From the IMG/VR virus record IMGVR_UViG_3300006201_000009: a DNA stretch of 64,000 nt, one strand, 5' to 3'. This document shows positions 4,302-25,402 of the stretch, one piece after another; positions within the stretch are counted from its first letter, which is position 1; every line of letters starts with the position of its first letter. A program made the position numbers and the translations under genes. The notes beneath the pieces were generated by a model, which was given only the letters and a program-made list of their open reading frames with translations, had not been told where the DNA came from and searched no databases. This DNA comes from a virus (Duplodnaviria; Heunggongvirae; Uroviricota; Caudoviricetes).

Positions 4302-4874
4302 TTATTTTTTTGTTTCTTCAAATAGGTTTGATGCTAACAAATCAGCGACGCTGATTAACGTTACGAGTTTCGAGTTATCTTGTGCCTTGCTCAAGCTGTA
4401 ATCGCCGCCCTTGGTGGCGGAATCGAAGCCGCCCATGTGCCAACGTATAGCGAGTAATTCTTCAAGTGAAAGCTTTATGTACCACTGCAAAATGATGCAG
4501 CTCTTTTCACCGTGACCAAGTGGAACTCTCTCGTCAACTTCGTAGACTTCCTTGACAACCCAGTTGCCGTTTTCGTCTTTGACATTTCGTGTTCCGCGCT
4601 TATAGTAATTAACCTTGCAAAGGTCATGGAAGAGAGCGGTGATTGCAATTGTTTCTTTTGAATAGCCGAGTTGGTAGATGTCGTTCAGCCTTGCCAATTC
4701 TCTATGAACGTTTAGCGAGTGCTCGCACAAACCGCCTTCATAGTTTCCGTGAAATCTTGTGCTTGCTGGAGCAGTGAAGAAGTCGCTGTCTTCAAGCCAC
4801 TTCAATAAATCGTTTATACCGTCTCGCTTGATATCTTCTTTACAGATAGCGAGGAATGTTTCTTTGTTTGTCAT
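4302..4874 (-). CDS. HD-domain phosphohydrolase
   Basis: H...H...HD pattern (HSLNVH...ALFHDLCK); preceded by GTGTCTAAATATG motif and AAGGA RBS. Confidence 0.55.
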   Translation of the reverse strand: MTNKETFLAICKEDIKRDGINDLLKWLEDSDFFTAPASTRFHGNYEGGLCEHSLNVHRELARLNDIYQLGYSKETIAITALFHDLCKVNYYKRGTRNVKDENGNWVVKEVYEVDERVPLGHGEKSCIILQWYIKLSLEELLAIRWHMGGFDSATKGGDYSLSKAQDNSKLVTLISVADLLASNLFEETKK

Positions 4875-4916: not shown

Positions 4917-5150
4917 TTATGTGTCAGATTTACTACATTCGCTACAGATCATCTTTCCAAGTTCGGCGTCGCCAAGAGGAGCTCCGCAACAAACGCATAT
5001 TTCCGACATATTACGAAGCTCAAGTTTTTGCTGTTGCCGCAATTTATGGTTAAGCTGTCGTCTTGCTGTTCTTTTCAGCGATGGGGTAACGCTATCAAGG
5101 CGAGCGTCCCATCCGGCGTCTCTCGCAGTAATCTTCTTTGTGCTACGCAT
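4917..5150 (-). CDS. Small zinc-ribbon protein
   Basis: CVCCGAPLGDAELGKMICSECS; start ATGCGTAG overlaps stop of upstream gene (translational coupling). Confidence 0.4.
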   Translation of the reverse strand: MRSTKKITARDAGWDARLDSVTPSLKRTARRQLNHKLRQQQKLELRNMSEICVCCGAPLGDAELGKMICSECSKSDT

Positions 5151-6144
5151 TTGAAAGTTCCTCTCTGATTCGCATAAGAATTTTTCCGAGCTTGTTTTTG
5201 CCCTCACCGTTGCATACACCCCATTCTCTGTCGTTCCAATCGTTACCCTCGATGAGTTGTACGGAACCAGTGGAGAGTAGTTTTTCTTTTAGGTCAGGAT
5301 GTTGCATAAACTTAGCGCGGCAAACCTCGAGCATGATGTCTTCTTTGACTTGCTCCCAGTCGGAACGAAGTTGGACGTGTCGCCCAAGTTTCTTTGCCGC
5401 CGACGGGTCGAGGTCGCAAAACTCGCTTGCTCTTTCGGGACACTTCATTGCGTGGAACGCCGCTTCATTATTCTTAAATGTAAGACCGAAACAGGTAACG
5501 TCTCTTTCGTAGAAGTTGCTTAGGTAGTAATTGTTTCCTCTGAACTCTGTGATGTCATTCATAATTTGTTCTCCGTTTATCCTTAAAAGAATTTCTCGAA
5601 CAATCTCGTCATATCCTTTCACATCGCCTTCAATGGAGCGGTAGGGGATGTTTCTGTCTTTGAGGAGCGAGATAACCGATGCACCAAGTGCGTCTGACTC
5701 AGCTTCAGTCTGCTTACGCCCAACGGGATTGTACGGCTTAACTCTCAGCAAGAGGTAGTTAAGGTTGTCGTATGTGTTGAACACATCCATTACGGCTTTG
5801 TTAAAGTTTTCTGTAAGTCGTTCGTCGTTGTTGTACATTACACTTAAAGGAAGCGGGCTGTCGGTAACGATAACATCAACCTTACCGGCGCAGCGGCTTA
5901 TCCTATAAGATTGCTCTCCAAATATGTAGGCTTGGTTGCGGAACGCTTCATCGTTTCGTTCCCAAACTTTATCTTTTGCATATTCGGTTATAAGTTCTGC
6001 ATTGATGCCTGCCATTTTAATGCAGGAGAATATGTATGCGGCTCCCGTGCTTTTGCCTGCGCCAGGAACGCCAAATAGATTAACTACCAACGTATTAGCC
6101 ATTTCGTGTACTCCAAACTTTGATAGCTTCTTCGCGTGAGTCAT
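5143..6144 (-). CDS. P-loop NTPase/kinase fused to NADAR (YbiA-like ADP-ribose/N-glycosidase) domain
   Basis: Walker A FGVPGAGKST at N-terminus; C-terminal NADAR-like signature EGNDWNDREWGVCNGEGKNKLGKILMRIREEL. Confidence 0.55.
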   Translation of the reverse strand: MTHAKKLSKFGVHEMANTLVVNLFGVPGAGKSTGAAYIFSCIKMAGINAELITEYAKDKVWERNDEAFRNQAYIFGEQSYRISRCAGKVDVIVTDSPLPLSVMYNNDERLTENFNKAVMDVFNTYDNLNYLLLRVKPYNPVGRKQTEAESDALGASVISLLKDRNIPYRSIEGDVKGYDEIVREILLRINGEQIMNDITEFRGNNYYLSNFYERDVTCFGLTFKNNEAAFHAMKCPERASEFCDLDPSAAKKLGRHVQLRSDWEQVKEDIMLEVCRAKFMQHPDLKEKLLSTGSVQLIEGNDWNDREWGVCNGEGKNKLGKILMRIREELSNA

Positions 6145-8074: not shown

Positions 8075-8515
8075 TCATTTGTAAAGCTGGTACTTTTTGC
8101 TGATGAGATGAGCAATATCATCAGGGAGTGGACGAAAACCTATACAAGTGAGTGTTCTGCCGATGCCATTCTCATCAATTTCTTCTGGTTCAAGCTCGGT
8201 AAGACAACTGTCTTTAATGAGAAAGAAATCTTTGCCCTCAATCAGACCAAGTTCGTTTGCCATAGTAACAGCTTTCATAAGTTGGTTGCGGTTCTTTGCC
8301 TCGCAAATTGTTTTCGTGAAAATACCGCAAATCCATTCCTTGTACACGTCGGTATCTATGTCCGCTTTGTACGTGATTCCGCCTGTTCCAACCCATTGGC
8401 AATTTCCGTTGCGCATTGGGCTTGTGATAAATGCCATAGAGGCGTGGCAGCATTGCGCTGCCAACTTACCCGCTGACATATTCAAATCCTTTCTTGCAAT
8501 TATTAACTGTCTCAT
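8075..8515 (-). CDS. PTH2-family peptidyl-tRNA hydrolase-like protein
   Basis: MRQLIIARKDLNMSAGKLAAQCCHASMAF matches the PTH2 N-terminal signature (K..vR.DL.M..GK.aAQ..HA). Confidence 0.5.
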   Translation of the reverse strand: MRQLIIARKDLNMSAGKLAAQCCHASMAFITSPMRNGNCQWVGTGGITYKADIDTDVYKEWICGIFTKTICEAKNRNQLMKAVTMANELGLIEGKDFFLIKDSCLTELEPEEIDENGIGRTLTCIGFRPLPDDIAHLISKKYQLYK

Positions 8516-13208: not shown

Positions 13209-13550
13209 TTAAACTCCTATACCGATAGAAATCATAAGTTTTCTGTTAATGTCGTCAATTTTACTTCTATTAACAACTTCGCCCAACTTTTTCTTAAGTC
13301 TCGTTTTGTCTACAACTCTGACCTGCTCACATAACACCGTAGAAACTTTAAGTATTCCTGCATCGCTTGGCGTCAGCGTAACGTGAGTTTCTATCGGTGT
13401 TTTATCTTGAGATGTGAGAGGGCAAATGATAGTAGTAGGGGAATGTTGGTTCCCTTGTTCATTCTGTACTATCAAAGCGGGGCGAATACCGGTTTGTTCC
13501 GAGCCTACCTGATTACTTAAATCGACTAAATATATTTCGCCTCGGTGCAT
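13209..13550 (-). CDS. mazF: MazF/PemK-family endoribonuclease toxin
   Basis: GEIYLVDLSNQVGSEQTGIRPALIVQNE...IICPLTSQ...VLCEQVRVVDKTRL is collinear with the MazF/PemK consensus. Confidence 0.65.
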   Translation of the reverse strand: MHRGEIYLVDLSNQVGSEQTGIRPALIVQNEQGNQHSPTTIICPLTSQDKTPIETHVTLTPSDAGILKVSTVLCEQVRVVDKTRLKKKLGEVVNRSKIDDINRKLMISIGIGV

Positions 13551-13802: not shown

Positions 13803-15014
13803 TTATATATTGTGTTTAAGTAAGAATTGATTGCTGATACACTTAAAGCTAATTTTGTTGTCGTGGTCTCGTATAACAACGCCTTCTCTAAGCGTATCGC
13901 ACAATGTGGACTTTCCGTCAGCATAAGCAATCATTTCATCGACAGTGGGGAGCAGCTTAAAGTTCGCGTTAATAATCGGAACCCACTTGATTCCAAAGTC
14001 GTGCATCACATCTGTTGCGACTGCGCTGTCCATTTTTACCCCGTCGATTACAAGGTTGAAGGCATAGAAATCAATTCCCTTGAGACCGTATTTATTTTTT
14101 TGAATTGCCTCGCCAATGGTTTCGCCCTGAAGAACGACAGTAGTTGCTTTATATTTTTCAAGTATCTGCATAAGCACGTTGCGGATGTCGTACTTATTGG
14201 CGATTTGGTGGTACACATTGTCGTCGTAGAAACACTTTTGGTTGATGTCGGCTTGGCGCACGTTCCGTGAACACACCGCGAAGTCATATTTTCTTTTCTT
14301 TTCTTTTCTCAACCCAAAGCTCGTAGAGGTGCCGTCCAGCTTTTCAGTGACGACCATTGGCTTGTCCTTGTATGTATCGAGAACGAAAGGCATATTTTGC
14401 AAACGTGTTTCGTCCGTTTTAACGATCCAGTCGGGGAAGTTTTTCGGTTTCTTTTTCGGTGCGAGAAGTTTATAAACGGTTTTTCTAAACCACTTGAACT
14501 TCATAAACCATAAAAATACTTTATTTTTGAAGAGTTTTTTGTGGCGTTGCTTAATTGCCGCCGCGGGGTCTTTGACCTGTTGCTTGGGAACATCATCTTC
14601 GACCTGTTTAATCTTAAGGATGTCGGTAACATCGTCACCGATGCCGTGTGTTTTTTCGTCATGGAGAACAGAGAGGGGGAAGATGATGCCTTGAGATATG
14701 ACGCCGCGCATTTTCATTGTCTTAATTTTATAATGTTTAGACTCAAGAAACGCGAAGTCAGGATTGTCGGAAGGCATAATGCTGTCAATTTCAACGTAGA
14801 TTGCAAGATCGCCAACCTTAAATTCATTCTTTTTTACGATACACTGCCAGCCGAGTATGCCGGCGAGCTCGATTTTGTCAGCTCCTTCGATGGGGCGGAG
14901 CCATGCAATTTGTTCGATGTGAGCAAGTTTTCTCATAATACACTCCAAATTATTTTTTGTGTTTGGAACGAAGCCATTGAATATGTTTTTTAATGCTGTC
15001 TTGACGACTGTCAT
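13803..15014 (-). CDS. ATP-dependent RNA ligase with N-terminal OB-like domain (Rnl5/DraRnl/NgrRnl-like)
   Basis: Nucleotidyltransferase motif I KLDGTS (VVTEKLDGTSTSF); N-terminal MRKLAHIEQIAWLRPIEGADKIELAGILGWQCIVKKNEFKVGDLAIYVEIDS resembles N-terminal domain of this Rnl class. Confidence 0.55.
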   Translation of the reverse strand: MTVVKTALKNIFNGFVPNTKNNLECIMRKLAHIEQIAWLRPIEGADKIELAGILGWQCIVKKNEFKVGDLAIYVEIDSIMPSDNPDFAFLESKHYKIKTMKMRGVISQGIIFPLSVLHDEKTHGIGDDVTDILKIKQVEDDVPKQQVKDPAAAIKQRHKKLFKNKVFLWFMKFKWFRKTVYKLLAPKKKPKNFPDWIVKTDETRLQNMPFVLDTYKDKPMVVTEKLDGTSTSFGLRKEKKRKYDFAVCSRNVRQADINQKCFYDDNVYHQIANKYDIRNVLMQILEKYKATTVVLQGETIGEAIQKNKYGLKGIDFYAFNLVIDGVKMDSAVATDVMHDFGIKWVPIINANFKLLPTVDEMIAYADGKSTLCDTLREGVVIRDHDNKISFKCISNQFLLKHNI

Positions 15015-17150: not shown

Positions 17151-17906
17151 TTACTCTAACGTAGCGGGCATATTTCTCTTGTGCTCTGACGCTTGGTGCA
17201 TTTGCTCTATTTTTAGAGCGGTTTCGTAATCCGTGTTTGAAGTTCCACCCGTGATATACCCGTCAAGCGTTGAGTATGTAAAGCCGAAACTATCTTCGTC
17301 ACTCTTGCCGCATAATCCATCGGACGGTGTCTTAACGACATACTTTTTATCTAATCCGAACTCCTCAGCAAGCAGTTCGCCGAGAGCAATAACCTCGGTA
17401 CAGGTTAGATGGGCAATGGGGTTGAAGTCGTATGCGCTGTCGCCCCATTTGGTTGTCCAACCGATATAAGCCTCGCTTGCATTGCCTGTTCCAATAACCC
17501 TGTATCCAAGGGTTTGGGCAATGGCGTACAGCACTGTCATACGAATACGAGGAGGGATATTGGTAAGTGATTTTCTTGAGATATTAAATACCTTACCGTT
17601 ACAATAATCCGAGCCAGAACCTTCGTCTTCGACAACCTCGAGCAATGAGTCATAAACTTTTCCGATATTAACTACCTTGAAGTTTATCCCAAGGGTTTCA
17701 ACAATTTTGAGAGAGTCGTCAAGGTCGGATTGGTTGTGATTTGGCATAAGAACGCCAAGCACATTGTCCCCCCAAACTTTCTTCGCAAGCATTGCTACAA
17801 CGGTGCTATCTTTGCCGCCACTTATTCCAAGAACAACTCCGCGACATCTTGTAATTTCTTTGTACTGTTCAAGCCAGTCTAATATTTCTTTTAGTTTAGC
17901 TTCCAT
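17151..17906 (-). CDS. nadE: NH3-dependent NAD+ synthetase (PP-loop ATP pyrophosphatase)
   Basis: PP-loop SGGKDS in GVVLGISGGKDSTVVAMLA; size 251 aa. Confidence 0.65.
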   Translation of the reverse strand: MEAKLKEILDWLEQYKEITRCRGVVLGISGGKDSTVVAMLAKKVWGDNVLGVLMPNHNQSDLDDSLKIVETLGINFKVVNIGKVYDSLLEVVEDEGSGSDYCNGKVFNISRKSLTNIPPRIRMTVLYAIAQTLGYRVIGTGNASEAYIGWTTKWGDSAYDFNPIAHLTCTEVIALGELLAEEFGLDKKYVVKTPSDGLCGKSDEDSFGFTYSTLDGYITGGTSNTDYETALKIEQMHQASEHKRNMPATLE

Positions 17907-18367
17907 ATTTCAACCTTCCATTTATCGTCGGCAAATTCTTCTTCGATGATTTTTCTCACTATGTTCCAGTCGCCGCCACCCAGTCCGCAACCGATGCCAT
18001 AAGGGAAGCCAATAGTAAATTCTGTATCGGCAATCTCTATCGGAATAAGGGTTTTAAGTTGTTGGCAGCATAGCCTAAACATCTCATAGTTCGTATGGTT
18101 AATGCCACGCGGCAAGTAATGAAGCTGTGCGAACATATTAGCAATGTAGTGGGTCTTAGCCTCTGAAATTGCGCATATTTGAGCAACTCCCATTAGGTAT
18201 TCCAGTTTATTCTGCTCGCATAGCTGTTTATATTTTGAAAAGATATGGGGGTAAGTGGCGCGTATCTGTTTTGCGATGCCTGAACCCATAACTCCTTGAC
18301 AGTTTACTTGGTGGCAGATGATATTGCAGTTGCTTTTAAGCAAATCTCCGTTTTTATATGTGATCAT
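17891..18367 (-). CDS. Macro-domain protein (ADP-ribose binding/hydrolase)
   Basis: ITYKNGDLLKSNCNIICHQVNCQGVMGSGIAKQI matches the macrodomain N-terminal signature. Confidence 0.6.
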   Translation of the reverse strand: MITYKNGDLLKSNCNIICHQVNCQGVMGSGIAKQIRATYPHIFSKYKQLCEQNKLEYLMGVAQICAISEAKTHYIANMFAQLHYLPRGINHTNYEMFRLCCQQLKTLIPIEIADTEFTIGFPYGIGCGLGGGDWNIVRKIIEEEFADDKWKVEIWKLN

Positions 18368-19860
18368 TAAAATTTATCTCCATAAAGCCTTCTGCGGACA
18401 TCGGCAAGACTATATTCGAGCGTCATCTTGCCGTCGTTAAAGACCGTCTTTAGGGCATTGTCGGCACGATAAGTCTCTTTGAAGTCGTGTTCGTCTTCGC
18501 TTGTTAACGCGCCGTCAGCCCCCGTTAAAACGAGCACACAGCCTTTGTGAGACTTTTTGAACGAAGCCTCTTTGGGATTTTTGAAAATCATTATAGGCTT
18601 TCCGTCTTTATCTTCAGCATAAGTCGCCTTGATGGCAATTCCGAACGTATCTCTTGTGTAGGGGTTGAACGTCGGGATAGCAGCGTGTTCCTCGTAAGAC
18701 TCAAGGCATTGCATAGAGAAGCTACCAACACCGAGAGCAACATTGCTTGCTGCAAATCCGTTGTCAACCAATATCGTGTAAATTGCTTCTGCTCTTTGAG
18801 GCGTAATGCTATCGCCGTATATTGCCTTGATATGGGGGTTTAGAACCTTGTAGCCCTTTGAGTTGACTGTTCCACCGAACTGCTCCCAAAGGTGGAACAC
18901 GGTCTTTGTGACGACCTCAACGGGGTCGCCAGAGTCGCCGCGCACCAAGAGACATCCGTTATGCTCGAGGATTTCTTTCTTACACATTGGCAAGATGTTG
19001 TCTACCAAGTTCCAGTAATCGTAGCTGTCGCTCACCATACTGAAAGACGTATTAGGATAGATTTCTGTGAGCAGACGCTTAATCATTGTGATTTCGTCAC
19101 CGTCAACCGCGAAATTGCTGCACATTACAGAGTGCTCAGTTGACACAGAACCAAAGCCGACTTCCTCTTTTGAACAGTCGCAGTTATAATATCTTTCCAT
19201 ATAATCTACCGCAGGAACGGTGGCAGTGTTCACGAATGATAACAGCCAACCGGCGGAAGATTTATATGCACTACGTTTTGACTCTTGTCCTCTCATTGAG
19301 AAATCTCCAAGAGCTTTTCTACGAGGGATATTGTCGTCGCAACTTAAATCATAGAAGTGATCTACAATTTTCCTATATTTGTACCCGACATTTGCCGAAA
19401 TCATGGCGTGCCACATTTCGCAACTGATGACAGATTCGAGCGCGTTTGTAAGCCAAGCAAAATCGGGGTGAGTGTTGCTTATCTCGAACATAGGAACGCC
19501 GATTGGAACGAGAGTGCCTTCTGCGAGTGCCTTAATCTCAATGGGCAGATAGCCCAAGTCGTGTAGTTCTGCGATGCGCTCAATGCCGTACAACCCTTCA
19601 CCGAGTGTGTTGTTGAGGAGATGTTTGTATTCGCGTACAACGTCTTCCTTAGGACGGGAAAAGAAGAACTCGTTAAAGTCTTCGATAAGATATTCTTTGA
19701 TGAAAGACTGTAACCCAAACATTATAAGGTGTTTATCGTTCTTTAATCTGCTCATTCTTGGCACAAAATAGCTTACGACCTTCGTGATGCCTTTTGGATA
19801 TTGGTTCCAATGAACTTGTTTATAAAAATCGCTTTCTAAAAGCGGGTTAATTCTGTACAT
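18367..19860 (-). CDS. nadV: Nicotinamide phosphoribosyltransferase (NAMPT/NadV)
   Basis: ESDFYKQVHWNQYPKGITKVVSYFVPR N-terminal NAMPT signature; 497 aa. Confidence 0.65.
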   Translation of the reverse strand: MYRINPLLESDFYKQVHWNQYPKGITKVVSYFVPRMSRLKNDKHLIMFGLQSFIKEYLIEDFNEFFFSRPKEDVVREYKHLLNNTLGEGLYGIERIAELHDLGYLPIEIKALAEGTLVPIGVPMFEISNTHPDFAWLTNALESVISCEMWHAMISANVGYKYRKIVDHFYDLSCDDNIPRRKALGDFSMRGQESKRSAYKSSAGWLLSFVNTATVPAVDYMERYYNCDCSKEEVGFGSVSTEHSVMCSNFAVDGDEITMIKRLLTEIYPNTSFSMVSDSYDYWNLVDNILPMCKKEILEHNGCLLVRGDSGDPVEVVTKTVFHLWEQFGGTVNSKGYKVLNPHIKAIYGDSITPQRAEAIYTILVDNGFAASNVALGVGSFSMQCLESYEEHAAIPTFNPYTRDTFGIAIKATYAEDKDGKPIMIFKNPKEASFKKSHKGCVLVLTGADGALTSEDEHDFKETYRADNALKTVFNDGKMTLEYSLADVRRRLYGDKF

Positions 19861-20656
19861 TTAGTAAGCCCTCCCTGTAACACCTTGTGACTTTGAGTTT
19901 TGGATGTGATACGGTACAAATACTGTCGGTAGTGAACACTGCATCTATATGATCGAACACCTCACCCTTAAGAATGTTATTCTCGCAATGTGATACAACG
20001 AGGGTAATATGTTCGACACCGCGTTTTCTTAATTCTTTCGCCGCCGCAACGAATGTTCCACCGTAGCTACAAATGTCGTCACGAATGATAACGCTCTTTG
20101 TCCCTTCTACGAAGTTCATCAACTCATAGCTTTCAATACGACCATCCGTGTTGCGGTGTTTATTTCCGATAATGAAAGGGTTGTCTGTCGGCTCAAGATG
20201 ATAACGAGGAGCGTACTTCTTTGCAGCTCCGTTGTCAGGAAACATAATGGTTGCTTGCTCATCTTTGGGCGAAACCCTGAACGGTAAGTCACTTTCTTCC
20301 ACACGATCAATGAGTGCCATTGAAACATCGGAGTGGGGGTCGAGTACAAACACTTTGTTAAACTTCATAAGATTTATGAGTTCTGCAAAATATTTGAGGG
20401 TAAACAGTCTATTGCTGACGTTTCTGTCTTGCCGTGCATGAGGAATATACGGCATACAAAGATTTATGAGAAGTGTAGGGTGTTGCTGGCGAATGTGTCC
20501 TACAAGACTCCACAGGCAAAACAGCTCTGCGTCATTGTCGTAGCACCACGTAATATAGATAAAACCACGCGCCGCTGCAATTGGTGGAATAGGGCATTTA
20601 AGCGTTCCGTCGCCAAATGTTTCTTGTTTAATAATCGTGTCTTCGATTTTAATCAT
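19847..20656 (-). CDS. prs: Ribose-phosphate pyrophosphokinase (PRPP synthetase)
   Basis: PRPP-binding loop IIRDDICSYGGTFVAAAKEL; DPHSDVS motif; linked to nadV as in other phage NAD salvage modules. Confidence 0.6.
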   Translation of the reverse strand: MIKIEDTIIKQETFGDGTLKCPIPPIAAARGFIYITWCYDNDAELFCLWSLVGHIRQQHPTLLINLCMPYIPHARQDRNVSNRLFTLKYFAELINLMKFNKVFVLDPHSDVSMALIDRVEESDLPFRVSPKDEQATIMFPDNGAAKKYAPRYHLEPTDNPFIIGNKHRNTDGRIESYELMNFVEGTKSVIIRDDICSYGGTFVAAAKELRKRGVEHITLVVSHCENNILKGEVFDHIDAVFTTDSICTVSHPKLKVTRCYREGLLNVQN

Positions 20657-20677
20657 TGTGTTTCTCCGTTATATGTC

Positions 20678-21448
20678 TTAGTCTTCGGATACAGCGCCGA
20701 GTTCTAATAAAATTGGTACGAGTTCATCTTCCAAGAAAATGTCATACCACTCGTCGAATGCGTCCTTTGTTGCTTCGTTGAACTTGCTTGCTTCGATGTC
20801 TGGCTTTAGGTCATAACCGACGTCATACAAAGCACAATCGGATAATGTTCCTTCGCCGTTAAGATAACCGTGTTCTTGTGCCCAGCTATGCACAAATGCC
20901 CTTAACTCATCGTTTGAGTTAATAACTGCAATCTGGCAACTGTGCATAACTTCCAACGCGGCTTCGTGCTTCTCTTTTGTTAGCCCTGCGCATAAGTCGG
21001 CAAGAACAAGTATGTTTGCTTTGCTGAACAAGGTTACAAGGTTAAGAGCGTTAGATACGACGCAAATATCGGTACAGGTTCCGCATAGTTGAATTTCTTC
21101 TGGGAACTCGCACTTTGTTTTAATTGCAACGTACAGCGGTGTACCCGCTGAGAATGTGGTTTTGTTCACTTTAAGGATTGTTGCCTTAGGGTTGCGCTCT
21201 GCCGCCGCGTAGATTTCTGTATTGATGTTCCATCCCTCAGTTAAGGCGATGCAGTGGGGGACTGGTAGGTTCTTGCCCTCGCGAGTGTCGAGATAATCTT
21301 CCTCGTGTGTGTCTCTTGTAAAAACAATCAGACCTTCAAAGTTCGATACATAGTTAGCAACTTTATTAACGATTGCCTGTGCCATAGGATTAGCCAGCGA
21401 ACCGTCGATAAAATCGTTCTGCATATCGACAACAACTAAAACTTTCAT
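20678..21448 (-). CDS. pncA: Nicotinamidase / isochorismatase-family cysteine hydrolase (PncA-like)
   Basis: VVVDMQNDF, catalytic Cys context LCGTCTDICV. Confidence 0.6.
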   Translation of the reverse strand: MKVLVVVDMQNDFIDGSLANPMAQAIVNKVANYVSNFEGLIVFTRDTHEEDYLDTREGKNLPVPHCIALTEGWNINTEIYAAAERNPKATILKVNKTTFSAGTPLYVAIKTKCEFPEEIQLCGTCTDICVVSNALNLVTLFSKANILVLADLCAGLTKEKHEAALEVMHSCQIAVINSNDELRAFVHSWAQEHGYLNGEGTLSDCALYDVGYDLKPDIEASKFNEATKDAFDEWYDIFLEDELVPILLELGAVSED

Positions 21449-21891: not shown

Positions 21892-21968
21892 TGGTCGGAG
21901 CGACAGGATTTGAACCTGCGACCTTATGATCCCAAATCATACGCACTACCAAACTGTGCTACGCCCCG
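21892..21968 (-). tRNA. tRNA-Pro (anticodon UGG), CCA encoded
   Basis: Acceptor CGGGGCG/CGCTCCG, D arm GCACAGTTTGGTAGTGC, loop TTTGGGA, T loop GGTTCAAATCC, CCA. Confidence 0.7.
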
Positions 21969-22097
21969 ATGGCGGGTTAACGTGACCCGAACGGCATATC
22001 CCATAATTTAGCGCCGAAATGTGGTGCAACATTGTACTTCTGTTACATAATCCAACATTTCATTTAGGGCTATGGAAATCATTTGCTCTAACCCTCG

Positions 22098-22174
22098 TTG
22101 GTCGGAGTGAGAGGACTCGAACCCCCAAATTGCTGATCCTAAGTCAGCCGCCTATGCCAATTCGGCTACACTCC
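22098..22174 (-). tRNA. tRNA, type I, anticodon-loop CTTAGGA (anticodon UAG; Leu-like anticodon but no long variable arm)
   Basis: Acceptor CGGAGTG/CACTCCG + CCA; T loop TTCGAGT; D loop AATTGGCATA shared with two neighbours. Confidence 0.5.
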
Positions 22175-22177
22175 GTT

Positions 22178-22254
22178 GTGGTGGGAGAAGAGAGACTTGA
22201 ACTCTCAGAACCCAGTGTTTGAGGCTGGTACGTATGCCAATTCCGTCATTCTCC
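22178..22254 (-). tRNA. tRNA, type I, anticodon loop CTCAAAC (anticodon CAA?)
   Basis: Acceptor GGGAGAA/TTCTCCC + CCA; T loop GTTCAAGTC; D loop AATTGGCATA. Confidence 0.45.
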
Positions 22255-22359
22255 CGCGTCCTGCACCTAAGCATTGCTTATATACATCCGCAAGTTCTCG
22301 TTAAGCTATTCCTTGTTTCAGCTATTCCCAATACCCTTAACGTGGCTGGGAGGTGCAAG

Positions 22360-22436
22360 TGGTCAGGACGGTGGGAGTTGAACCCACAAAACACGGGGTT
22401 TAAGCCCGATGTCTATGCCAATTCGACTACGTCCTG
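22360..22436 (-). tRNA. tRNA, type I, anticodon loop CTTAAAC (anticodon UAA?)
   Basis: Acceptor CAGGACG/CGTCCTG + CCA; T loop GGTTCAACTCC; D loop AATTGGCATA. Confidence 0.45.
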
Positions 22437-22602
22437 ATAAAGCTCTTTCCAATTCGCCCAAGATTTCTCTTGCTCACGAGCAGATGAGTAGGTCGGTGAT
22501 GTTACCTGACGTTTCTTGGTTGTGATGTTATGTGCAATCATCACAAGCGCCGGTGCTTCTGGAAAGAGTTGTTATGTCGTTCTTGCACTGAACGGACATA
22601 AG

Positions 22603-22677
22603 TGGAGCGGGTAGCGAGAATTGAACTCGCACCTTCTGCTTGGAAGGCAGACGTCGTAGCCTTTTGACTATGCCCGC
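22603..22677 (-). tRNA. tRNA-Gly (UCC)
   Basis: Acceptor GCGGGCA; anticodon stem TCTGC/GCAGA, loop CTTCCAA; T loop GTTCAATTC; CCA. Confidence 0.65.
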
Positions 22678-23037
22678 AAAAAAAACTAATGGTGTGCTGT
22701 TACGCTAAAGACTCCAAGGGCACATATAGCATTGCCAGCGAACAGGGACTTAGCATATTCCACTGGGTTAAGTCGCAGAGTTTTCCTTTCTTTGCAACCT
22801 TACTATATTACACACTACTTACAGCTCTCGAACATCATAGATATCAGACCCTCGGGCGTATTTCAACGCCGTCCAAACTGCACTATATTGATGCCGTACC
22901 ACTTTCGTTTCCCTGAGGTGAAGATGTGTAGTGTAAGTTCACATCACATCGTTTCTTGTATGCCCGTGTACTTTGTCATACTTCCTCTCGTCACTCTTTA
23001 GATGGTGGCTGCTTCTAAGCCCACATTCCATTAGTGA

Positions 23038-23120
23038 TGGTGGGAGAGGTTGGACTCGAACCAACGAAGCCGAAACGCCTGATTTACAGTCAGGTGCAAT
23101 TGCCGCTATGCGACTCTCCC
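23038..23120 (-). tRNA. tRNA-Tyr (GUA), type II with long variable arm
   Basis: Acceptor GGGAGAG/CTCTCCC, anticodon stem CCTGA/TCAGG loop CTGTAAA, variable arm ~13 nt, T loop GGTTCGAGTCC, CCA. Confidence 0.65.
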
Positions 23121-23166
23121 ATGTAGTAAGAGCATCCTACCTAAACATTGAACGAACCGCCCCAGG

Positions 23167-23200
23167 TGGACGGTGTTGGAGTCGAACCAACATCTCTCTT
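23167..23200 (-). other. tRNA 3'-half-like remnant (T arm + acceptor 3' strand + CCA) immediately after tRNA-Lys
   Basis: Minus strand reads ...GTTGGTTCGACTCCAACACCGTCCA with no 5' half. Confidence 0.4.
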
Positions 23201-23276
23201 TGGTACCCGCGGTGAGAATCGAACTCACGACCCTTTGATTAAAAGTCAAATGCTCTACCGACTGAGCTACGCGGAT
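23201..23276 (-). tRNA. tRNA-Lys (UUU)
   Basis: GCGTAGCTCAGTCGGTAGAGCA D arm; anticodon stem TTTGA/TCAAA loop CTTTTAA; T loop GTTCGATTC; CCA. Confidence 0.65.
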
Positions 23277-23550
23277 AAAAAACAAGACACACCGAGACCT
23301 TCTATGTACATAAAGTAGCCAAAAATGGCAGAGGGCAACCAACGTAACACCTATATCCGCTCCCAGTTGCTTTTGCGGAGGAGTATGCTATTTAAGCATA
23401 AATCATTTAGCTTTGCTAAAAGTCATCTAACAACGGTTAGAACGTGGAAAACTCGCCAGCGAGCAGTCCTCAACTATACTGTTAATCTTCGTAAAGTTGC
23501 TGTGTGTGTCTTTAATAATGCGATGTTAAAAGGAGTGTACTTAATCGCAT

Positions 23551-23624
23551 TGGCAGGGACGGATGGGCTCGAACCATCACTGCGGGAGTCAAAGTCCCGT
23601 GCGCTACCGTTACGCTACGTCCCT
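23551..23624 (-). tRNA. tRNA-Gln (UUG)
   Basis: Acceptor AGGGACG/CGTCCCT; anticodon stem CGGGA/TCCCG loop CTTTGAC; T loop GGTTCGAGCCC; CCA. Confidence 0.6.
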
Positions 23625-23898
23625 ATAAAGGCTTTAAGGTCAGCCAACCGCACATACTTAACCCGAAAAATACTCAGGGTTGGATATTTGCTCCCCGAAG
23701 GTTTTACTCGATACTCAAACACACAAAGGGAATTTTCACTCGTCTCGTGAAATTCGTTATCGAATCGGATTTTCATGAGCTCGCGTAGTGAGCTTCTAAA
23801 AATCTGATTTGATGGAAGGGCGTTGTGATACATTTGCTATAAGCAAGTGCCTAACAGTATGTATAAAAGTTAGCATTGCTGTTTGAGTATCGGAGTAG

Positions 23899-23978
23899 TG
23901 GTGGAGCTGTTGGGATTTGAACCCAAGTCCTACGAATTCACTTTGGTTTTAATCGTAGTCGAAACCTTTCTCAGCCCC
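23899..23978 (-). ncRNA. tRNA-like RNA with canonical acceptor stem, T arm and CCA but aberrant D/anticodon region
   Basis: GGGGCTG...TTGGGTTCAAATCCCAA CAGCTCC A CCA; central part folds as an 5-bp stem (TACGA/TCGTA) with a 17-nt loop rather than a cloverleaf. Confidence 0.4.
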
Positions 23979-23979
23979 A

Positions 23980-24055
23980 TGGTTGGCAAGGATGGAATCG
24001 AACCATCGGCAACTGGTTTATAAGACCAGCCCCATCACCACTTGGGTACTTGCCA
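23980..24055 (-). tRNA. tRNA with anticodon UAU (Ile-like, AUA-decoding)
   Basis: Acceptor TGGCAAG/CTTGCCA, U8A9, D stem CCCA/TGGG loop AGTGGTGA, anticodon stem CTGGT/ACCAG loop CTTATAA, T loop TTCGATT, A73, CCA. Confidence 0.6.
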
Positions 24056-24060
24056 ATATG

Positions 24061-24136
24061 TGGAGCTGGATGTCGGACTTGAACCGACAACCTATCGCTT
24101 ACAAGGCGATTGCTCTGCCAATTGAGCTAATCCAGC
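24061..24136 (-). tRNA. tRNA-Thr (UGU)
   Basis: GCTGGATTAGCTCAATTGGCAGAGC; anticodon stem ATCGC/GCGAT loop CTTGTAA; T loop GGTTCAAGTCC; CCA. Confidence 0.65.
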
Positions 24137-24138
24137 GT

Positions 24139-24216
24139 TGGTCACCGCAGAGGGGGTCGAACCCTCAAACTCCACCGTGAAAGGGTGGTGACTTTAGCCA
24201 TTTTGTCTATGCGGCG
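24139..24216 (-). tRNA. tRNA-Glu (UUC)
   Basis: Anticodon stem CCACC/GGTGG loop CTTTCAC; T loop GGTTCGACCCC; CCA; acceptor with one G-U. Confidence 0.55.
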
Positions 24217-24368
24217 ATAAAAATATATAGGCTGTTCCTCAAACTCCATTTAACGTATCGTTATTTTCCGGCGCCCCAGTCAATAACTTTATCCATCCTT
24301 TCCCCGTTTCAATGCGGGTGTCTGCTTTACACTTCACTTCGCGGTTAGTACGGCACCTATATATTTTT

Positions 24369-24515
24369 TGGTGACTCGAACAGGAATTGAACCTGTACAT
24401 CTATCCCGTTTCTCGGCTACATACTGCAATGCAGGGATGTCGCGAACATCGCCGTAACCTACGCTTTAAGGCTTACTGTTCCCTCAGGGGTGTTCTATCA
24501 TTGAACTATCGAGCC
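24369..24515 (-). ncRNA. 147-nt tRNA-like RNA: canonical acceptor, U8A9, D arm, T arm and CCA, with ~70 extra nt replacing/inside the anticodon-variable region
   Basis: 5' GGCTCGA-TA-GTTC-AATGATA-GAAC ... 3' ACAGG-TTCAATT-CCTGT-TCGAGTC-A-CCA; 7-bp acceptor pairing (one G-U); internal small hairpins (CCCTGAGGG, GCGATGTTCGC, CTGCATTGCAG). Confidence 0.45.
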
Positions 24516-24518
24516 AAA

Positions 24519-24608
24519 TGGCGGAGGGTGTAGGACTCGAACCTACGCTCCGAATGAACGGAGAACGGCTTAGCAAGCCGCGGCAGTACCAACTATGCTT
24601 AACCCTCC
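24519..24608 (-). tRNA. tRNA-Ser (GCU), type II
   Basis: Acceptor GGAGGGT/ACCCTCC; anticodon stem GCGGC/GCCGT loop TTGCTAA; variable arm CTCCG-TTCATT-CGGAG; T loop GGTTCGAGTCC; CCA. Confidence 0.65.
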
Positions 24609-24622
24609 AAGCGGGAGCATCG

Positions 24623-24886
24623 CTACTCCCAATATGGATATATTTCAGCATCCGACACGTCTCCGTGAGACCATTTTACTGCCTTTCCGGCGTGAACAAT
24701 GGGCTCATCTTCTTTGTCATCGAATGATTGTTGTACCTTTTGCGTTGCGGCTTCTTCATTTTTTGCAAACACAACTCGTTGTCCATATATTCTGCCGCCG
24801 TCAAAGTAGGTTCCAGAGTAGGGAACTGTGAATTTCTTTAATCCTTTAATCATAAAACACCTATTCTGTATTGAAATTTTCGCCAT
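24623..24886 (-). CDS. Hypothetical protein
   Basis: ORF only. Confidence 0.3.
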   Translation of the reverse strand: MAKISIQNRCFMIKGLKKFTVPYSGTYFDGGRIYGQRVVFAKNEEAATQKVQQSFDDKEDEPIVHAGKAVKWSHGDVSDAEIYPYWE

Positions 24887-25133
24887 TCGCAGATATAAAG
24901 GTTGTAACAGCTTTTGCTATGTCATTTTTTTCACCTTTGATAACGAGAGTAAGTTCAGTTTGATACGATTGCTTGCACTTAACTATTGCTATATTAAATC
25001 GCGAATGATTTCGTATGAACCATTCCAGTGCGTGACGAACAGGGACATACAGGTATTCGCCAAATGAACACGTGCGGTCATATTTATGCACGGAATTTAT
25101 GTGAAGCACTTTCTTTCTTTTCATATTGACCAC
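24861..25133 (-). CDS. Hypothetical protein
   Basis: ORF only. Confidence 0.3.
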   Translation of the reverse strand: MVNMKRKKVLHINSVHKYDRTCSFGEYLYVPVRHALEWFIRNHSRFNIAIVKCKQSYQTELTLVIKGEKNDIAKAVTTFISANGENFNTE

Positions 25134-25156
25134 CTTTTTTGAATAAAAGAGTACTT

Positions 25157-25378: not shown

Positions 25379-25402
25379 ATTTATGTATCCTTATAAATTT
25401 TT

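What the first reader, a model, noticed from the sequence alone, without database searches (positions are those of the whole stretch)
13803..15014. Distributed RNA/tRNA repair toolkit co-occurring with a large tRNA array
The phage encodes six such enzymes: an Rnl5-like ATP-dependent RNA ligase (KLDGTS) at 13803-15014; a kinase-HD fusion resembling HD-Pnk at 28803-29699; a kinase-NADAR fusion at 5143-6144; a Pol-beta nucleotidyltransferase at 27322-28146; two metallophosphoesterases at 26067-27346; and an HD hydrolase at 4302-4874. Together with at least 14 tRNAs and a PTH2-like peptidyl-tRNA hydrolase, this looks like a counter-measure set against host anticodon nucleases or tRNA-targeting toxins. 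The kinase-NADAR fusion in particular is an uncommon architecture.
Basis: partly seen in the sequence, partly recalled or inferred. Interest (0 to 1): 0.6.

Follow-up and report, generated by a model that had tools for sequence, protein, structure and literature searches.

The report
Phage RNA end-repair genes beside tRNAs
A temperate gut phage related to Bacillus phage SPbeta carries a real three-enzyme RNA break-repair set (kinase-phosphoesterase, nucleotide adder, sealing ligase) next to 14 tRNA genes, a kind of counter-defence kit already described for large phages; two of the six listed enzymes probably belong to a separate NAD/ADP-ribose kit.

Summary
All listed genes exist at, or within a few codons of, the stated coordinates. 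There are 14 tRNAs, and the PTH2 hydrolase lies at 8075-8515.

Three enzymes form a real module. The ligase is a full-length Rnl5 (NgrRnl E 2e-42). The kinase-HD has polynucleotide-kinase signatures and a complete HD metal site, but its domain order is the reverse of Runella HD-Pnk. The Pol-beta enzyme is a divergent RlaP-like nucleotidyltransferase, not a CCA-adding enzyme. In 80 other viral loci carrying the kinase-HD, the nucleotidyltransferase lies within 2 kb in 49 and an Rnl5 in 13, often as one cassette: Rnl5, then NTase, then Pnk-HD. In this window the cassette is split by the tRNA array and an NAD module.

The two metallophosphoesterases are plausible accessories. The 190-aa HD protein is unresolved. 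It fits the adjacent NARP1-like NAD/ADP-ribose module better.

The concept is already published for large phages, so this is a new member of a known kind.

The parts
13803..14936 (-). Rnl5-family ATP-dependent RNA ligase: N-terminal OB domain, an insert of about 50 aa, then the nucleotidyltransferase domain. The ORF runs to 15014; the likely start is Met27.
   Evidence: Pfam PF21189 and PF09414. NgrRnl 5cot E 2e-42 over both domains, with KLDG, LQGE, REGVV and FK motifs aligned. TIGR02306 at 138.8 bits, just under its cut-off of 151. phrog_968 RNA ligase, E 4.5e-74.
28803..29699 (-). Pnk-HD: an N-terminal 5'-OH polynucleotide-kinase-like P-loop domain fused to a C-terminal HD phosphoesterase. 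Predicted to heal both ends of an RNA break.
   Evidence: AAA_33/KTI12 plus HD. PDB hits to PSTK, CthPnkp kinase 4gp7 and Pnkp1. TIGR04075 Pnkp and TIGR02692 CCA-enzyme HD region. Invariant GxxGxGK, SSD..R, DATN, H169, H176, H208-D209, H230, H234, H266, H291/D294.
28157..28819 (-). 220-aa ORF of unknown function between Pnk-HD and the NTase, overlapping both. It shares only an ITDPCY motif with a DUF4241-like neighbour in L005.
   Evidence: No Pfam, PHROG or PADLOC hit. Weak motif match only. No homologue in the 80 Pnk-HD loci.
27322..28146 (-). Divergent RlaP-like Pol-beta nucleotidyltransferase. Predicted to add 1-2 nucleotides to RNA 3'-OH ends.
   Evidence: phrog_388. 2885 homologues, of which 2 of 25 sampled hit PF10127 RlaP at up to 6.5e-6. 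Invariant G35, S36, D51, D53. AF2 pLDDT 94. Foldseek best matches are ANT(4') and Hailong HalB, TM about 0.4. Within 2 kb of Pnk-HD in 49 of 80 viral loci.
26846..27346 (-). Small metallophosphoesterase, YfcE/PdeM-like.
   Evidence: Metallophos and Metallophos_2. phrog_547, E 5.9e-51. TIGR04123 PdeM, E 2.2e-10. Homologue within 10 kb of Pnk-HD in 10 of 80 loci, and upstream of Rnl5 in L076 and L078.
26067..26849 (-). Lambda-phosphatase/PrpA-like metallophosphoesterase, the same superfamily branch as the Pnkp phosphatase domain.
   Evidence: Metallophos. phrog_246 NinI-like and phrog_8238. PDB hits to lambda PPase 1g5b (E 2.4e-4) and CthPnkp phosphatase 4j6o (E 0.07). Directly follows the NTase in L041.
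21892..26062 (-). Array of 14 tRNA genes: Pro, Leu x3, Gly, Tyr, Lys, Gln, Ile, Thr, Glu, Ser x2, Trp. Ten of the 14 have U at the wobble position.
   Evidence: ARAGORN and Rfam tRNA model. An equivalent array lies between the NTase/MPE genes and the NAD module in L041 and L005.
23899..23978 (-). 80-nt tmRNA-like element with only the tRNA-like domain: GGGGCUG...CAGCUCCACCA, a G3:U70 pair, a T arm and an encoded CCA, but no tag reading frame or pseudoknots.
   Evidence: Rfam RF00023 at 69.4 bits against a gathering score of 47. Fold and sequence. Not called by ARAGORN. Absent from 7 related loci.
8075..8515 (-). PTH2-type peptidyl-tRNA hydrolase, just downstream of an integrase gene.
   Evidence: PF01981 E 3.2e-20, 72.9 bits against a cut-off of 23. 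First located with phmmer. No homologue within 10 kb of Pnk-HD in any of 80 loci.
5143..6102 (-). Fusion of an AAA_28 nucleotide-kinase-like domain with a NADAR domain. It probably belongs to NAD/ADP-ribose chemistry rather than polynucleotide end healing.
   Evidence: Pfam. YbiA 2b3w, E 2.4e-17. AF2 pLDDT 83.6. Kinase fold closest to thymidylate and adenylate kinases and NadR. Fusion rare. In L001 it lies between an MPE, Thg1 and an RlaP-like NTase.
4302..4874 (-). 190-aa HD-domain phosphohydrolase; substrate unresolved.
   Evidence: PF01966 E 2.1e-6. phrog_28876. Only non-significant YhaM similarity. Within 10 kb of Pnk-HD in 7 of 80 loci.
17151..21448 (-). NAD module: NadE, Macro, Namat/NAMPT-like, Adps/Prs-like and an isochorismatase-type amidase. 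It lies between the tRNA array and the ligase.
   Evidence: Pfam. NCBIfam. Adps-like protein 34% identical over 97% of its length to the SPbetaL1 protein, whose enzyme was characterised in 10.1101/2024.02.11.579819. Same block in L007, L009, L041, L066 and L071.
13209..13550 (-). MazF/PemK-family endoribonuclease toxin immediately downstream of the ligase. A candidate antitoxin ORF lies at 13565-13789.
   Evidence: PF02452 E 1.9e-31. Ligase-MazF adjacency kept in L009 at 71-75% identity. The antitoxin ORF has no family hit.
39832..40073 (-). Two tandem tRNA-like RNAs of about 118 nt. They have acceptor, D and T arms, but the anticodon region is replaced by a hairpin followed by an invariant ACAGCAA.
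   Evidence: Rfam tRNA 51.7 and 50.6 bits; YrlA only 28.7 bits, below its gathering score of 69. 11 of 16 stem pairs covary. Own model finds copies upstream of the protein gene in 23 of 29 loci. 33 of 36 distinct copies carry ACAGCAA.
38167..39711 (-). DUF2828 helical domain plus a DUF7788 vWA-like domain with a DGSGS MIDAS motif. Candidate protein partner of the tRNA-like RNAs.
   Evidence: Pfam. ATG start with a GGAGG ribosome-binding site. Invariant D303, S305, S307. No Ro60/TROVE hit with a profile against PDB. Homologue within 10 kb of Pnk-HD in 26 of 80 loci.

Best explanation
The window is the accessory, counter-defence arm of a temperate gut phage related to SPbeta. It encodes a classical '5'-phosphate' RNA healing-and-sealing pathway.

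1. **Healing.** Pnk-HD phosphorylates the 5'-OH end and opens or removes the 2',3'-cyclic or 3'-phosphate left by metal-independent ribonucleases.
2. **Filling.** The RlaP-like nucleotidyltransferase can add back one or two nucleotides to the 3'-OH if the nuclease also trimmed the end.
3. **Sealing.** The Rnl5 ligase closes the resulting 3'-OH/5'-PO4 nick.

In many other phages these genes form one cassette. Here the cassette is split: Pnk-HD, NTase and two metallophosphoesterases form an overlapping operon abutting a 14-tRNA array, and the ligase sits 13 kb away beyond an NAD-reconstitution module.

The tRNA array replaces tRNAs that cannot be saved, and PTH2 frees peptidyl-tRNA. The kinase-NADAR fusion, Macro and the NARP1-like genes form a second, parallel kit against NAD depletion and ADP-ribosylation.

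What is shown: family and domain assignments, conserved catalytic residues, and gene linkage. What is inferred: the substrates (tRNA or other RNA), the direction of the conflict, and every enzymatic activity.
For: - Rnl5 membership by full-length alignment with conserved motifs.
- Polynucleotide-kinase-type relatives and signature residues in Pnk-HD, with a complete HD metal site.
- The HD region is most like the HD domain of CCA-adding enzymes.
- The NTase has a Pol-beta fold and reaches PF10127 RlaP through its homologues. RlaP enzymes add 1-2 NMP to damaged RNA 3' ends and are proposed as the antidote to trimming nucleases such as RloC (PMC12776372).
- Gene linkage in 80 viral loci: NTase within 2 kb in 49 (18 of 37 clusters at 70% identity); Rnl5 within 2 kb in 13 (5 of 37). 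The co-directional order Rnl5, NTase, Pnk-HD recurs in L060, L064, L065, L067, L071, L075, L076 and L078.
- Window genes 26067-29699 overlap end to end on one strand and abut tRNA-Trp.
- The same layout holds in the closest relatives L041 and L009, and in L005 and L007.
- 20 of the 80 loci carry 5 or more tRNAs within 10 kb.
- The published framework for large phages is the same logic (PMC7824862; PMC9503650).
Against: - No activity was measured.
- Characterised Rnl5 enzymes seal nicks in duplexes whose 3'-OH strand is RNA. Their physiological role is called uncharted, and the only phenotype is radiation sensitivity and delayed genome reassembly (PMC5397189). Repair of tRNA anticodon loops is therefore not established for this family.
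- The window NTase itself does not hit PF10127 at E 0.1 or better, and its nearest solved folds have TM of only about 0.4.
- In one locus Pnk-HD is next to an ATP-dependent DNA ligase (L008).
- In the window the ligase is 13 kb from its partners.
- Linkage of the metallophosphoesterases, the 190-aa HD protein, PTH2 and kinase-NADAR to the module is weak: 0-10 of 80 loci.
- Many of the 80 loci are close relatives, and counts fall after dereplication.
Confidence: 0.6

Rival explanations
1. The ligase, Pnk-HD and NTase repair DNA or RNA-DNA junctions rather than tRNA. Examples are ribonucleotide-terminated nicks, primer junctions, or damage from restriction and radiation. Their closeness to the tRNA array would then be incidental clustering of accessory genes.
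For: - Loss of DraRnl delays genome reassembly after irradiation, and the authors leave open DNA repair, RNA repair or both (PMC5397189).
- Runella HD-Pnk is described as a DNA/RNA end-healing enzyme (PMC6097658).
- Pnk-HD lies next to an ATP-dependent DNA ligase in L008.
- RNase H, a retron-type RT, ERF and a PD-(D/E)XK nuclease are encoded in the same arm.
Against: - Characterised RlaP enzymes accepted only RNA among cellular macromolecules (PMC12776372).
- The kinase is closest to tRNA and RNA kinases (PSTK, Pnkp), and the HD domain to that of the CCA enzyme.
- The operon abuts tRNA genes here and in L041 and L005, and 20 of 80 loci have 5 or more tRNAs nearby.
Confidence: 0.2
2. All six enzymes plus the tRNAs and PTH2 form one integrated tRNA-repair toolkit. 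In this reading the kinase-NADAR fusion and the 190-aa HD protein act as polynucleotide end-healing enzymes.
For: - In a 219-kb contig the kinase-NADAR fusion lies between a metallophosphoesterase, Thg1 and an RlaP-like NTase (L001).
- An AAA_28 kinase lies within 2 kb of Pnk-HD in L061 and L093.
- A stand-alone AAA_28 kinase and a Macro protein lie within 10 kb of an Rnl5 in L011.
- NADAR has been predicted to process ADP-ribose by-products of NAD-dependent RNA repair (PMC9503650).
Against: - The kinase fold is closest to thymidylate and adenylate kinases and NadR. It matches no polynucleotide-kinase family in Pfam, PHROGs or NCBIfam. Sequence searches of the PDB returned only non-significant P-loop matches to nucleotide kinases, and the fold search placed nucleotide kinases first.
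- No KptA/Tpt1 was found in the proteins scanned.
- NADAR lies within 10 kb of Pnk-HD in only 1 of 80 loci, and the 190-aa HD protein in 7 of 80.
- In the window these two genes are about 9 kb from the ligase (about 22-23 kb from Pnk-HD), beyond two integrase genes.
Confidence: 0.12
3. The repair enzymes mainly manage damage caused by the phage's own MazF endoribonuclease. They would reverse or limit cuts that leave 2',3'-cyclic phosphate and 5'-OH ends, rather than countering host nucleases.
For: - MazF lies directly downstream of the ligase, and this adjacency is kept in L009.
- From general knowledge, MazF products are the substrates an end-healing enzyme needs, and RtcB has been reported to reverse MazF cleavage in E. 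coli. This was not checked here.
Against: - MazF is near Pnk-HD in only 1 of 80 loci, and none of the 13 loci with the Rnl5/Pnk-HD cassette has it.
- The candidate antitoxin has no family support.
- The toxin-antitoxin pair sits next to an integrase gene, as an addiction or exclusion module would.
Confidence: 0.08

Closest known systems
Phage RNA-repair and tRNA-provisioning systems as catalogued for jumbo and large phages (Burroughs and Aravind 2016, cited from PMC7824862; Iyer et al. 2021, PMC7824862; Iyer et al. 2022, PMC9503650)
   Same: The component list matches: ATP-dependent RNA ligase, polynucleotide kinase, HD or calcineurin-like phosphoesterases, RlaP nucleotidyltransferase, tRNA arrays and PTH2. 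It sits alongside Macro, NADAR and NAD salvage genes in early or accessory regions.
   Different: This phage is a temperate SPbeta-like relative, apparently mid-sized (related contigs 76-190 kb), rather than a jumbo phage. The sealing enzyme is Rnl5 rather than Rnl1, Rnl2 or RtcB. The phosphatase is HD fused C-terminal to the kinase rather than HAD. The module is split by the tRNA array and the NAD genes.
Runella slithyformis HD-Pnk with its adjacent ATP-dependent ligase (Munir and Shuman 2017, as described in PMC6097658)
   Same: A single polypeptide combines an HD phosphoesterase with a P-loop 5'-OH polynucleotide kinase. In relatives it is genetically linked to an ATP-dependent ligase.
   Different: The domain order is reversed here (kinase, then HD). 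The partner ligase is Rnl5. No Tpt1 or methyltransferase-HIT partner was found.
Bacteriophage T4 Pnkp plus Rnl1, which reverses PrrC cleavage of tRNA-Lys (as summarised in PMC12776372)
   Same: The logic is the same: heal a 2',3'-cyclic phosphate/5'-OH break and seal it with an ATP-dependent ligase, so that translation continues during infection.
   Different: The enzyme families differ at every step: HD versus HAD phosphatase, and Rnl5 nick-sealing ligase versus Rnl1. This window adds a nucleotide-adding step and a 14-tRNA array.
RlaP (PF10127) nucleotidyltransferases of Pseudomonas, encoded in RtcB-RtcA operons (PMC12776372)
   Same: Pol-beta fold with a GS...DxD active site, and genomic association with RNA ligases and end-healing enzymes.
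   Different: The window protein does not itself reach the PF10127 model. It belongs to a large sister group of 2885 homologues and partners a 5'-phosphate ligase rather than RtcB.
NARP1 (Adps plus Namat) of SPbetaL1 and Bas63, and phage AdfN NADAR proteins (10.1101/2024.02.11.579819; PMC11825919)
   Same: An adjacent Prs-like and NAMPT-like gene pair in an SPbeta relative, and a phage NADAR domain.
   Different: The pair is embedded here with NadE, Macro and an amidase. The NADAR is fused to a nucleotide-kinase-like domain, an arrangement not seen in any of 691 matching phage isolate records.

Membership tests
Rnl5 RNA ligases (DraRnl/NgrRnl) | N-terminal OB domain preceding the nucleotidyltransferase domain | tested here: met
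   PF21189 at residues 30-114 and PF09414 at 219-392. Both halves align to NgrRnl 5cot. An extra linker of about 50 aa lies between them.
Rnl5 RNA ligases (DraRnl/NgrRnl) | Motif I lysine (KxDG) and motifs III, IV and V of covalent nucleotidyltransferases | tested here: met
   KLDG aligns to the KLDG of NgrRnl; LQGE, REGVV and FK are conserved in the same alignment.
Rnl5 RNA ligases (DraRnl/NgrRnl) | Reaches the curated equivalog model TIGR02306 | tested here: not met
   138.8 bits against a cut-off of 151.15. The match is split in two by the linker insert. I read this as a near miss rather than exclusion.
Rnl5 RNA ligases (DraRnl/NgrRnl) | Mn-dependent sealing of nicks whose 3'-OH strand is RNA | not testable with these tools
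   This is a biochemical property (PMC4408790, PMC5397189).
HD-Pnk end-healing enzymes (Runella type) | HD phosphoesterase domain with a complete metal-binding set | tested here: met
   Invariant H169, H176, H208-D209, H230, H234, H266 and H291/D294 in 22 homologues. The Pfam HD hit for the window protein alone is below the cut-off.
HD-Pnk end-healing enzymes (Runella type) | P-loop 5'-OH polynucleotide kinase domain | tested here: met
   Best relatives are PSTK, the CthPnkp kinase and Pnkp1, plus TIGR04075. Invariant GxxGxGK, SSD..R and DATN. Activity was not tested.
HD-Pnk end-healing enzymes (Runella type) | Domain order: N-terminal HD, C-terminal kinase | tested here: not met
   The kinase occupies residues about 5-135 and HD about 165-295. 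The Runella order is HD then Pnk (PMC6097658).
HD-Pnk end-healing enzymes (Runella type) | Gene adjacent to an ATP-dependent ligase | tested here: inconclusive
   Not adjacent in the window (13.8 kb apart). Adjacent to Rnl5 in 13 of 80 viral loci, or 5 of 37 clusters.
RlaP nucleotidyltransferases (PF10127) | Pol-beta fold with the GS...DxD catalytic signature | tested here: met
   Invariant G35, S36, D51, D53. Foldseek probability 1.0 to ANT(4') and HalB.
RlaP nucleotidyltransferases (PF10127) | Match to the PF10127 model | tested here: not met
   The window protein has no hit at E 0.1 or better. Two of 25 homologues hit, the best at 6.5e-6, and P0213 carries PF10127.
RlaP nucleotidyltransferases (PF10127) | Neighbourhood association with RNA ligases or end-healing genes | tested here: met
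   Within 2 kb of Pnk-HD in 49 of 80 loci, and between Rnl5 and Pnk-HD in at least 8 loci.
Polynucleotide kinases (for the kinase of the kinase-NADAR fusion) | Sequence or fold membership in a 5'-OH polynucleotide kinase family | tested here: not met
   AAA_28 only. phrog_2107, annotated thymidylate kinase. No polynucleotide-kinase hit. Fold closest to thymidylate and adenylate kinases and NadR, TM normalised to target 0.55-0.64.
NADAR | Match to PF08719 above the gathering score | tested here: met
   93.3 bits against 35.1. YbiA 2b3w, E 2.4e-17. Catalytic residues were not checked individually.
NARP1 (Adps plus Namat) | Adjacent Prs-like and NAMPT-like genes in a phage | tested here: met
   19847-20656 and 18367-19860 overlap by 14 nt. 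The Adps-like protein is 34% identical to its SPbetaL1 counterpart. Placement inside the Adps clade and substrate specificity were not tested.
PTH2 peptidyl-tRNA hydrolase | Match to PF01981 above the gathering score | tested here: met
   72.9 bits against 23, covering the whole model.
Ro60/Y-RNA (YrlA) ribonucleoprotein | RNA matches the YrlA covariance model | tested here: not met
   28.7 bits against a gathering score of 69. The match spans the junction of two tandem copies, so the arm order differs from YrlA.
Ro60/Y-RNA (YrlA) ribonucleoprotein | Protein has a TROVE domain followed by vWA | tested here: inconclusive
   A vWA-like DUF7788 domain with a MIDAS motif is present. No TROVE or Ro60 hit by Pfam or by a profile against PDB.

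The most novel reading that the evidence does not exclude
The window may encode a layered translation-protection system wider than any described for a temperate phage. It would contain two elements with no described counterpart.

1. A family of about 115-130-nt RNAs that keep tRNA acceptor, D and T arms but replace the anticodon region with a covarying hairpin followed by an invariant ACAGCAA. They occur in arrays of 1-4 upstream of a DUF2828-vWA protein in 23 of 29 viral loci. They could form a Ro/Y-RNA-like particle, act as a decoy for tRNA nucleases, or scaffold RNA repair.
2. An 80-nt tmRNA-like RNA without a tag template. Together with PTH2 it could free stalled ribosomes without tagging the peptide.

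In the same reading, the kinase-NADAR fusion would be a new bifunctional enzyme linking removal of ADP-ribose from nucleic acid to its phosphorylation.
Probability: 0.3. Interest if true: 0.75.

Novelty: new member of a known kind. Interest (0 to 1): 0.42.

Why it matters
Rnl5 ligases are biochemically and structurally well studied, but their natural role is still called uncharted (PMC5397189). This work shows that in hundreds of gut-phage contigs an Rnl5 gene is cassette-linked to an end-healing Pnk-HD and an RlaP-like nucleotide adder, and here to a tRNA array. That gives a concrete, testable setting for the role: reversal of ribonuclease damage during infection. It also adds a compact three-enzyme system from temperate gut phages to the short list of candidate RNA-repair pathways. 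The window also shows that counter-measures against tRNA cleavage and against NAD depletion travel together in one accessory arm. The practical lesson for annotation is that kinase-plus-X fusions should not be pooled as polynucleotide kinases without checking the kinase family.

Tried and rejected
- **Near-identical phage in GenBank:** none by megablast. Only distant protein-level relatives were found among SPbeta-like phages.
- **NTase as a CCA-adding enzyme, suggested by the tRNA array:** rejected. No PolyA_pol or CCA family hit. The fold is closest to ANT(4') and HalB; a tRNA-processing-enzyme complex entry (3wfq) appears only at rank 34 with probability 0.07.
- **NTase as part of a known defence system:** no PADLOC hit.
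- **Kinase of kinase-NADAR as a polynucleotide kinase:** rejected. The profile hits to designer PPR proteins are repeat artefacts.
- **ORF 29692-30105 as the cREC phosphoesterase found at the same position in L005:** no similarity.
- **DUF2828 protein as a Ro60/TROVE homologue:** not detectable by sequence or profile, so it is kept only as a hypothesis.
- **tRNA-like RNAs as YrlA:** below threshold, with a different arm order.
- **Conservation of the tag-less tmRNA-like element:** not found in 7 related loci.
- **Burroughs and Aravind 2016:** could not be read. Its content is cited only through later papers.
- **Consensus fold of the RNA insert:** failed because the insert aligns poorly. The hairpin was seen in single-sequence folds only.


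Full report
**What the window is.** Genes run on the minus strand from 1 to about 47,950 and on the plus strand from 48,793. A terminase-like protein (56984-58762) is 44% identical to those of SPbeta, phi3T and the SPbetaL phages. There is no nucleotide-level match to any phage isolate. The closest protein relatives come from metagenome assemblies (ENA, Logan, IMG/VR), several on contigs of 76-190 kb. Two tyrosine integrases, ERF, a PD-(D/E)XK nuclease and a primase-helicase are present. I read the window as the accessory arm of a temperate SPbeta-like phage of a gut Firmicute. The host is inferred, not shown.

**Check of the observation.**
- The ligase ORF (13803-15014) has an N-terminal PHA02142 OB domain and an RNA_ligase domain.
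- The kinase-HD (28803-29699) has an AAA_33/KTI12-type kinase and an HD domain.
- The kinase-NADAR (5143-6144) has AAA_28 and NADAR.
- The Pol-beta enzyme (27322-28146) has no Pfam hit but matches phrog_388 'nucleotidyltransferase'.
- The two metallophosphoesterases (26067-26849 and 26846-27346) and the HD protein (4302-4874) are confirmed.
- ARAGORN finds exactly 14 tRNAs at 21892-26062, and Rfam agrees.

Minor corrections: the ligase probably starts at Met27 (14936), where the alignment to NgrRnl begins. The kinase-NADAR probably starts at 6102.

**The ligase.** It aligns over both domains to Naegleria gruberi RNA ligase (E 2e-42). KLDG lies on the adenylylated-lysine motif, and LQGE, REGVV and FK are conserved. 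A linker of about 50 aa separates the two domains, which is probably why the DRB0094 equivalog model scores 138.8 bits against a cut-off of 151.

One caveat matters. Characterised Rnl5 enzymes seal nicks in duplexes with an RNA 3'-OH strand. Their physiological role is described as uncharted, and the only phenotype reported is radiation sensitivity (PMC5397189).

**The kinase-HD.**
- The kinase half is closest to L-seryl-tRNA(Sec) kinase, the kinase domain of Clostridium thermocellum Pnkp, and Pnkp1. It also matches the bacterial Pnkp model.
- Twenty-two homologues down to 41% identity keep GxxGxGK, SSD..R and DATN. They also keep a full HD set: H169, H176, H208-D209, H230, H234, H266, H291/D294.
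- The HD half is most like the HD region of CCA-adding enzymes.
- The architecture is common: 844 homologues, nearly all full length.
- The order is kinase then HD, the reverse of Runella HD-Pnk (PMC6097658). It works like HD-Pnk, but I do not file it as a member of that family.

**The nucleotidyltransferase.**
- It has 2885 homologues with invariant G35, S36, D51 and D53.
- The model is confident (pLDDT 94).
- The best solved matches are kanamycin nucleotidyltransferase and Hailong HalB, at TM about 0.4. The only tRNA-processing entry in the list (3wfq, 'tRNA processing enzyme complex 1') ranks 34th with probability 0.07.
- Two of 25 homologues reach PF10127 RlaP.
- RlaP enzymes add one or two nucleotides to damaged RNA 3' ends. 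They are proposed to undo trimming by nucleases such as RloC (PMC12776372).

I call it a divergent RlaP-like enzyme.

**Linkage.** I fetched 80 viral loci encoding Pnk-HD relatives at 36-53% identity. I searched each locus for relatives of the window proteins and for tRNAs.

| Feature | Raw loci (of 80) | Clusters at 70% Pnk-HD identity (of 37) |
|---|---|---|
| NTase within 2 kb of Pnk-HD | 49 | 18 |
| Rnl5 within 2 kb of Pnk-HD | 13 | 5 |
| 5 or more tRNAs within 10 kb | 20 | not computed |
| Small metallophosphoesterase (MPE2) within 10 kb | 10 | 8 |
| Lambda-phosphatase-like MPE1 within 10 kb | 7 | 7 |
| 190-aa HD protein within 10 kb | 7 | 4 |
| AAA_28 kinase within 10 kb | 4 | 4 |
| NADAR within 10 kb | 1 | 1 |
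| PTH2 within 10 kb | 0 | not computed |

- Eight loci show the co-directional order Rnl5, NTase, Pnk-HD. Five show Rnl5 directly followed by Pnk-HD.
- Three of the six enzymes are therefore a real module, and the others are not demonstrably part of it.
- In the window, genes 26067-29699 overlap end to end and abut tRNA-Trp.
- The closest relative keeps the same order. L041 and L009 are two parts of one 76-kb contig. The order is MPE, Pnk-HD, NTase, MPE, tRNA array, NAD module, Band_7, Rnl5, MazF, integrase.
- L071 has the compact cassette directly joined to the NAD module. The window layout therefore looks like a cassette split by insertions.

**The kinase-NADAR fusion.**
- No phage isolate record covers 80% or more of it.
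- Of the top 120 clusters in the large protein collection, 7 carry both Pfam domains and two more align over about 94% of the fusion with only NADAR recorded. The rest are stand-alone kinases of about 185 aa at 60-78% identity.
- The predicted structure (pLDDT 83.6) places the kinase nearest thymidylate and adenylate kinases and NadR.
- A profile search of solved structures finds no polynucleotide kinase.
- NADAR proteins of phages remove ADP-ribose from guanine in DNA and defeat DarTG1 (PMC11825919). NADARs also act on guanine-modified RNA but not on RNA phosphate ends (PMC11833690).
- The window carries NadE, Macro, a NAMPT-like protein, a Prs-like protein and an amidase in a row. The Prs-like protein is 34% identical to the SPbetaL1 enzyme shown to be Adps of the NARP1 pathway.

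I therefore assign the fusion to the NAD/ADP-ribose kit. Some doubt remains. In L001 it sits between a metallophosphoesterase, Thg1 and an RlaP-like NTase. In L061 and L093 a stand-alone AAA_28 kinase lies within 2 kb of Pnk-HD.

**The other enzymes.** The 260-aa metallophosphoesterase is of the lambda-phosphatase type, the branch that also holds the Pnkp phosphatase domain. The 166-aa one is YfcE/PdeM-like. The 190-aa HD protein has only non-significant similarity to YhaM.

**Comparison with what is known.** The same parts list is published as a general adaptation of large phages against tRNA-cleaving defences. It comprises an RNA ligase, a polynucleotide kinase, HAD, calcineurin-like or HD phosphatases, RlaP, Thg1, tRNA arrays and PTH2. 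It appears alongside Macro, NADAR and NAD salvage genes (PMC7824862; PMC9503650). This finding is therefore a new member of a known kind. Its particular features are the Rnl5 sealing enzyme, the kinase-then-HD fusion, a divergent RlaP branch, a temperate SPbeta-like host phage, and the split arrangement.

**Seen in passing.**
- **tRNA-like RNAs.** Two tandem RNAs of about 118 nt at 39832-40073 score as tRNA in their acceptor, D and T arms but have a 54-59-nt insert in place of the anticodon arm.
  - They lie just upstream of a DUF2828 plus vWA-like protein, whose true start is 39711.
  - A model built from 11 copies finds such RNAs upstream of the protein gene in 23 of 29 related viral loci, in arrays of 1-4.
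  - Stems covary, and 33 of 36 distinct copies carry ACAGCAA right after a hairpin.
  - They are not YrlA, and the protein shows no detectable Ro60 relationship.
- **Tag-less tmRNA-like element.** An 80-nt RNA at 23899-23978 has only the tRNA-like domain of tmRNA, with G3:U70 and an encoded CCA. It was not found in seven related loci.
- **MazF toxin.** It follows the ligase directly.
- **Retron-type RT.** It lies at 32475-33623 beside a ThiF-like protein.

Noticed in passing
window 39832-39950(-) and 39957-40073(-); also L012-L040, within about 2.2 kb upstream of position 3001: A family of about 103-130-nt tRNA-like RNAs. They keep acceptor, D and T arms, with covarying stems. The anticodon region is replaced by a hairpin followed by an invariant ACAGCAA (33 of 36 distinct copies). 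They occur in arrays of 1-4 upstream of a DUF2828-vWA gene in 23 of 29 viral loci. There is no Rfam family for them other than tRNA; YrlA scores below threshold.
   Followed up: partly
window 38167-39711(-): The DUF2828 plus DUF7788 (vWA-like, DGSGS MIDAS motif) protein. The listed ORF start at 40002 is wrong: the real start is the ATG at 39711, preceded by GGAGG. I suspected a Ro60-like protein, but no TROVE or Ro60 similarity was detectable by sequence or profile.
   Followed up: partly
window 23899-23978(-): An 80-nt RNA matching the tmRNA model (69.4 bits) that has only the tRNA-like domain: GGGGCUG...CAGCUCCACCA, G3:U70, and an encoded CCA. It has no tag reading frame. It sits inside the tRNA array, was not called by ARAGORN, and was not found in 7 related loci.
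   Followed up: partly
window 13209-13550(-), with a candidate antitoxin at 13565-13789(-): A MazF/PemK endoribonuclease toxin immediately downstream of the Rnl5 ligase and upstream of an integrase-like gene. The arrangement is kept in L009 at 71-75% identity.
   Followed up: partly
This is a NARP1-like NAD reconstitution set, conserved in L007, L009, L041, L066 and L071.
   Followed up: partly
window 32475-36913(-): A retron-type reverse transcriptase (PADLOC RT_II-A, E 1.5e-53), with a gap of about 310 nt upstream. Next to it are a ThiF/E1-like protein and two unknown proteins of 312 and 461 aa. The block is conserved in L005, L006, L007 and L041. No msr/msd RNA was looked for.
   Followed up: no
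window 8526-9824(-) and 12031-13050(-): Two tyrosine recombinase genes about 2 kb apart, with an HTH protein (9811-10086), PTH2 and unknown ORFs around them. Contig L009 ends just after the homologue of the second one. This could be the phage integration module or a nested mobile element.
   Followed up: no
L001 10001-13050 (219-kb ENA contig): In an unrelated large viral contig a kinase-NADAR fusion (48% identical) is followed by a Thg1-family 3'-5' polymerase and an RlaP-like NTase (41% identical), and is preceded by a metallophosphoesterase. This is the only context that ties the fusion to RNA repair.
   Followed up: partly
window 15329-16438(-) and 16463-17101(-): A Band_7/SPFH protein and a GP88-family protein lie between the NAD module and the ligase. 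The order is kept in L007 and L009. Their function here is unknown.
   Followed up: no
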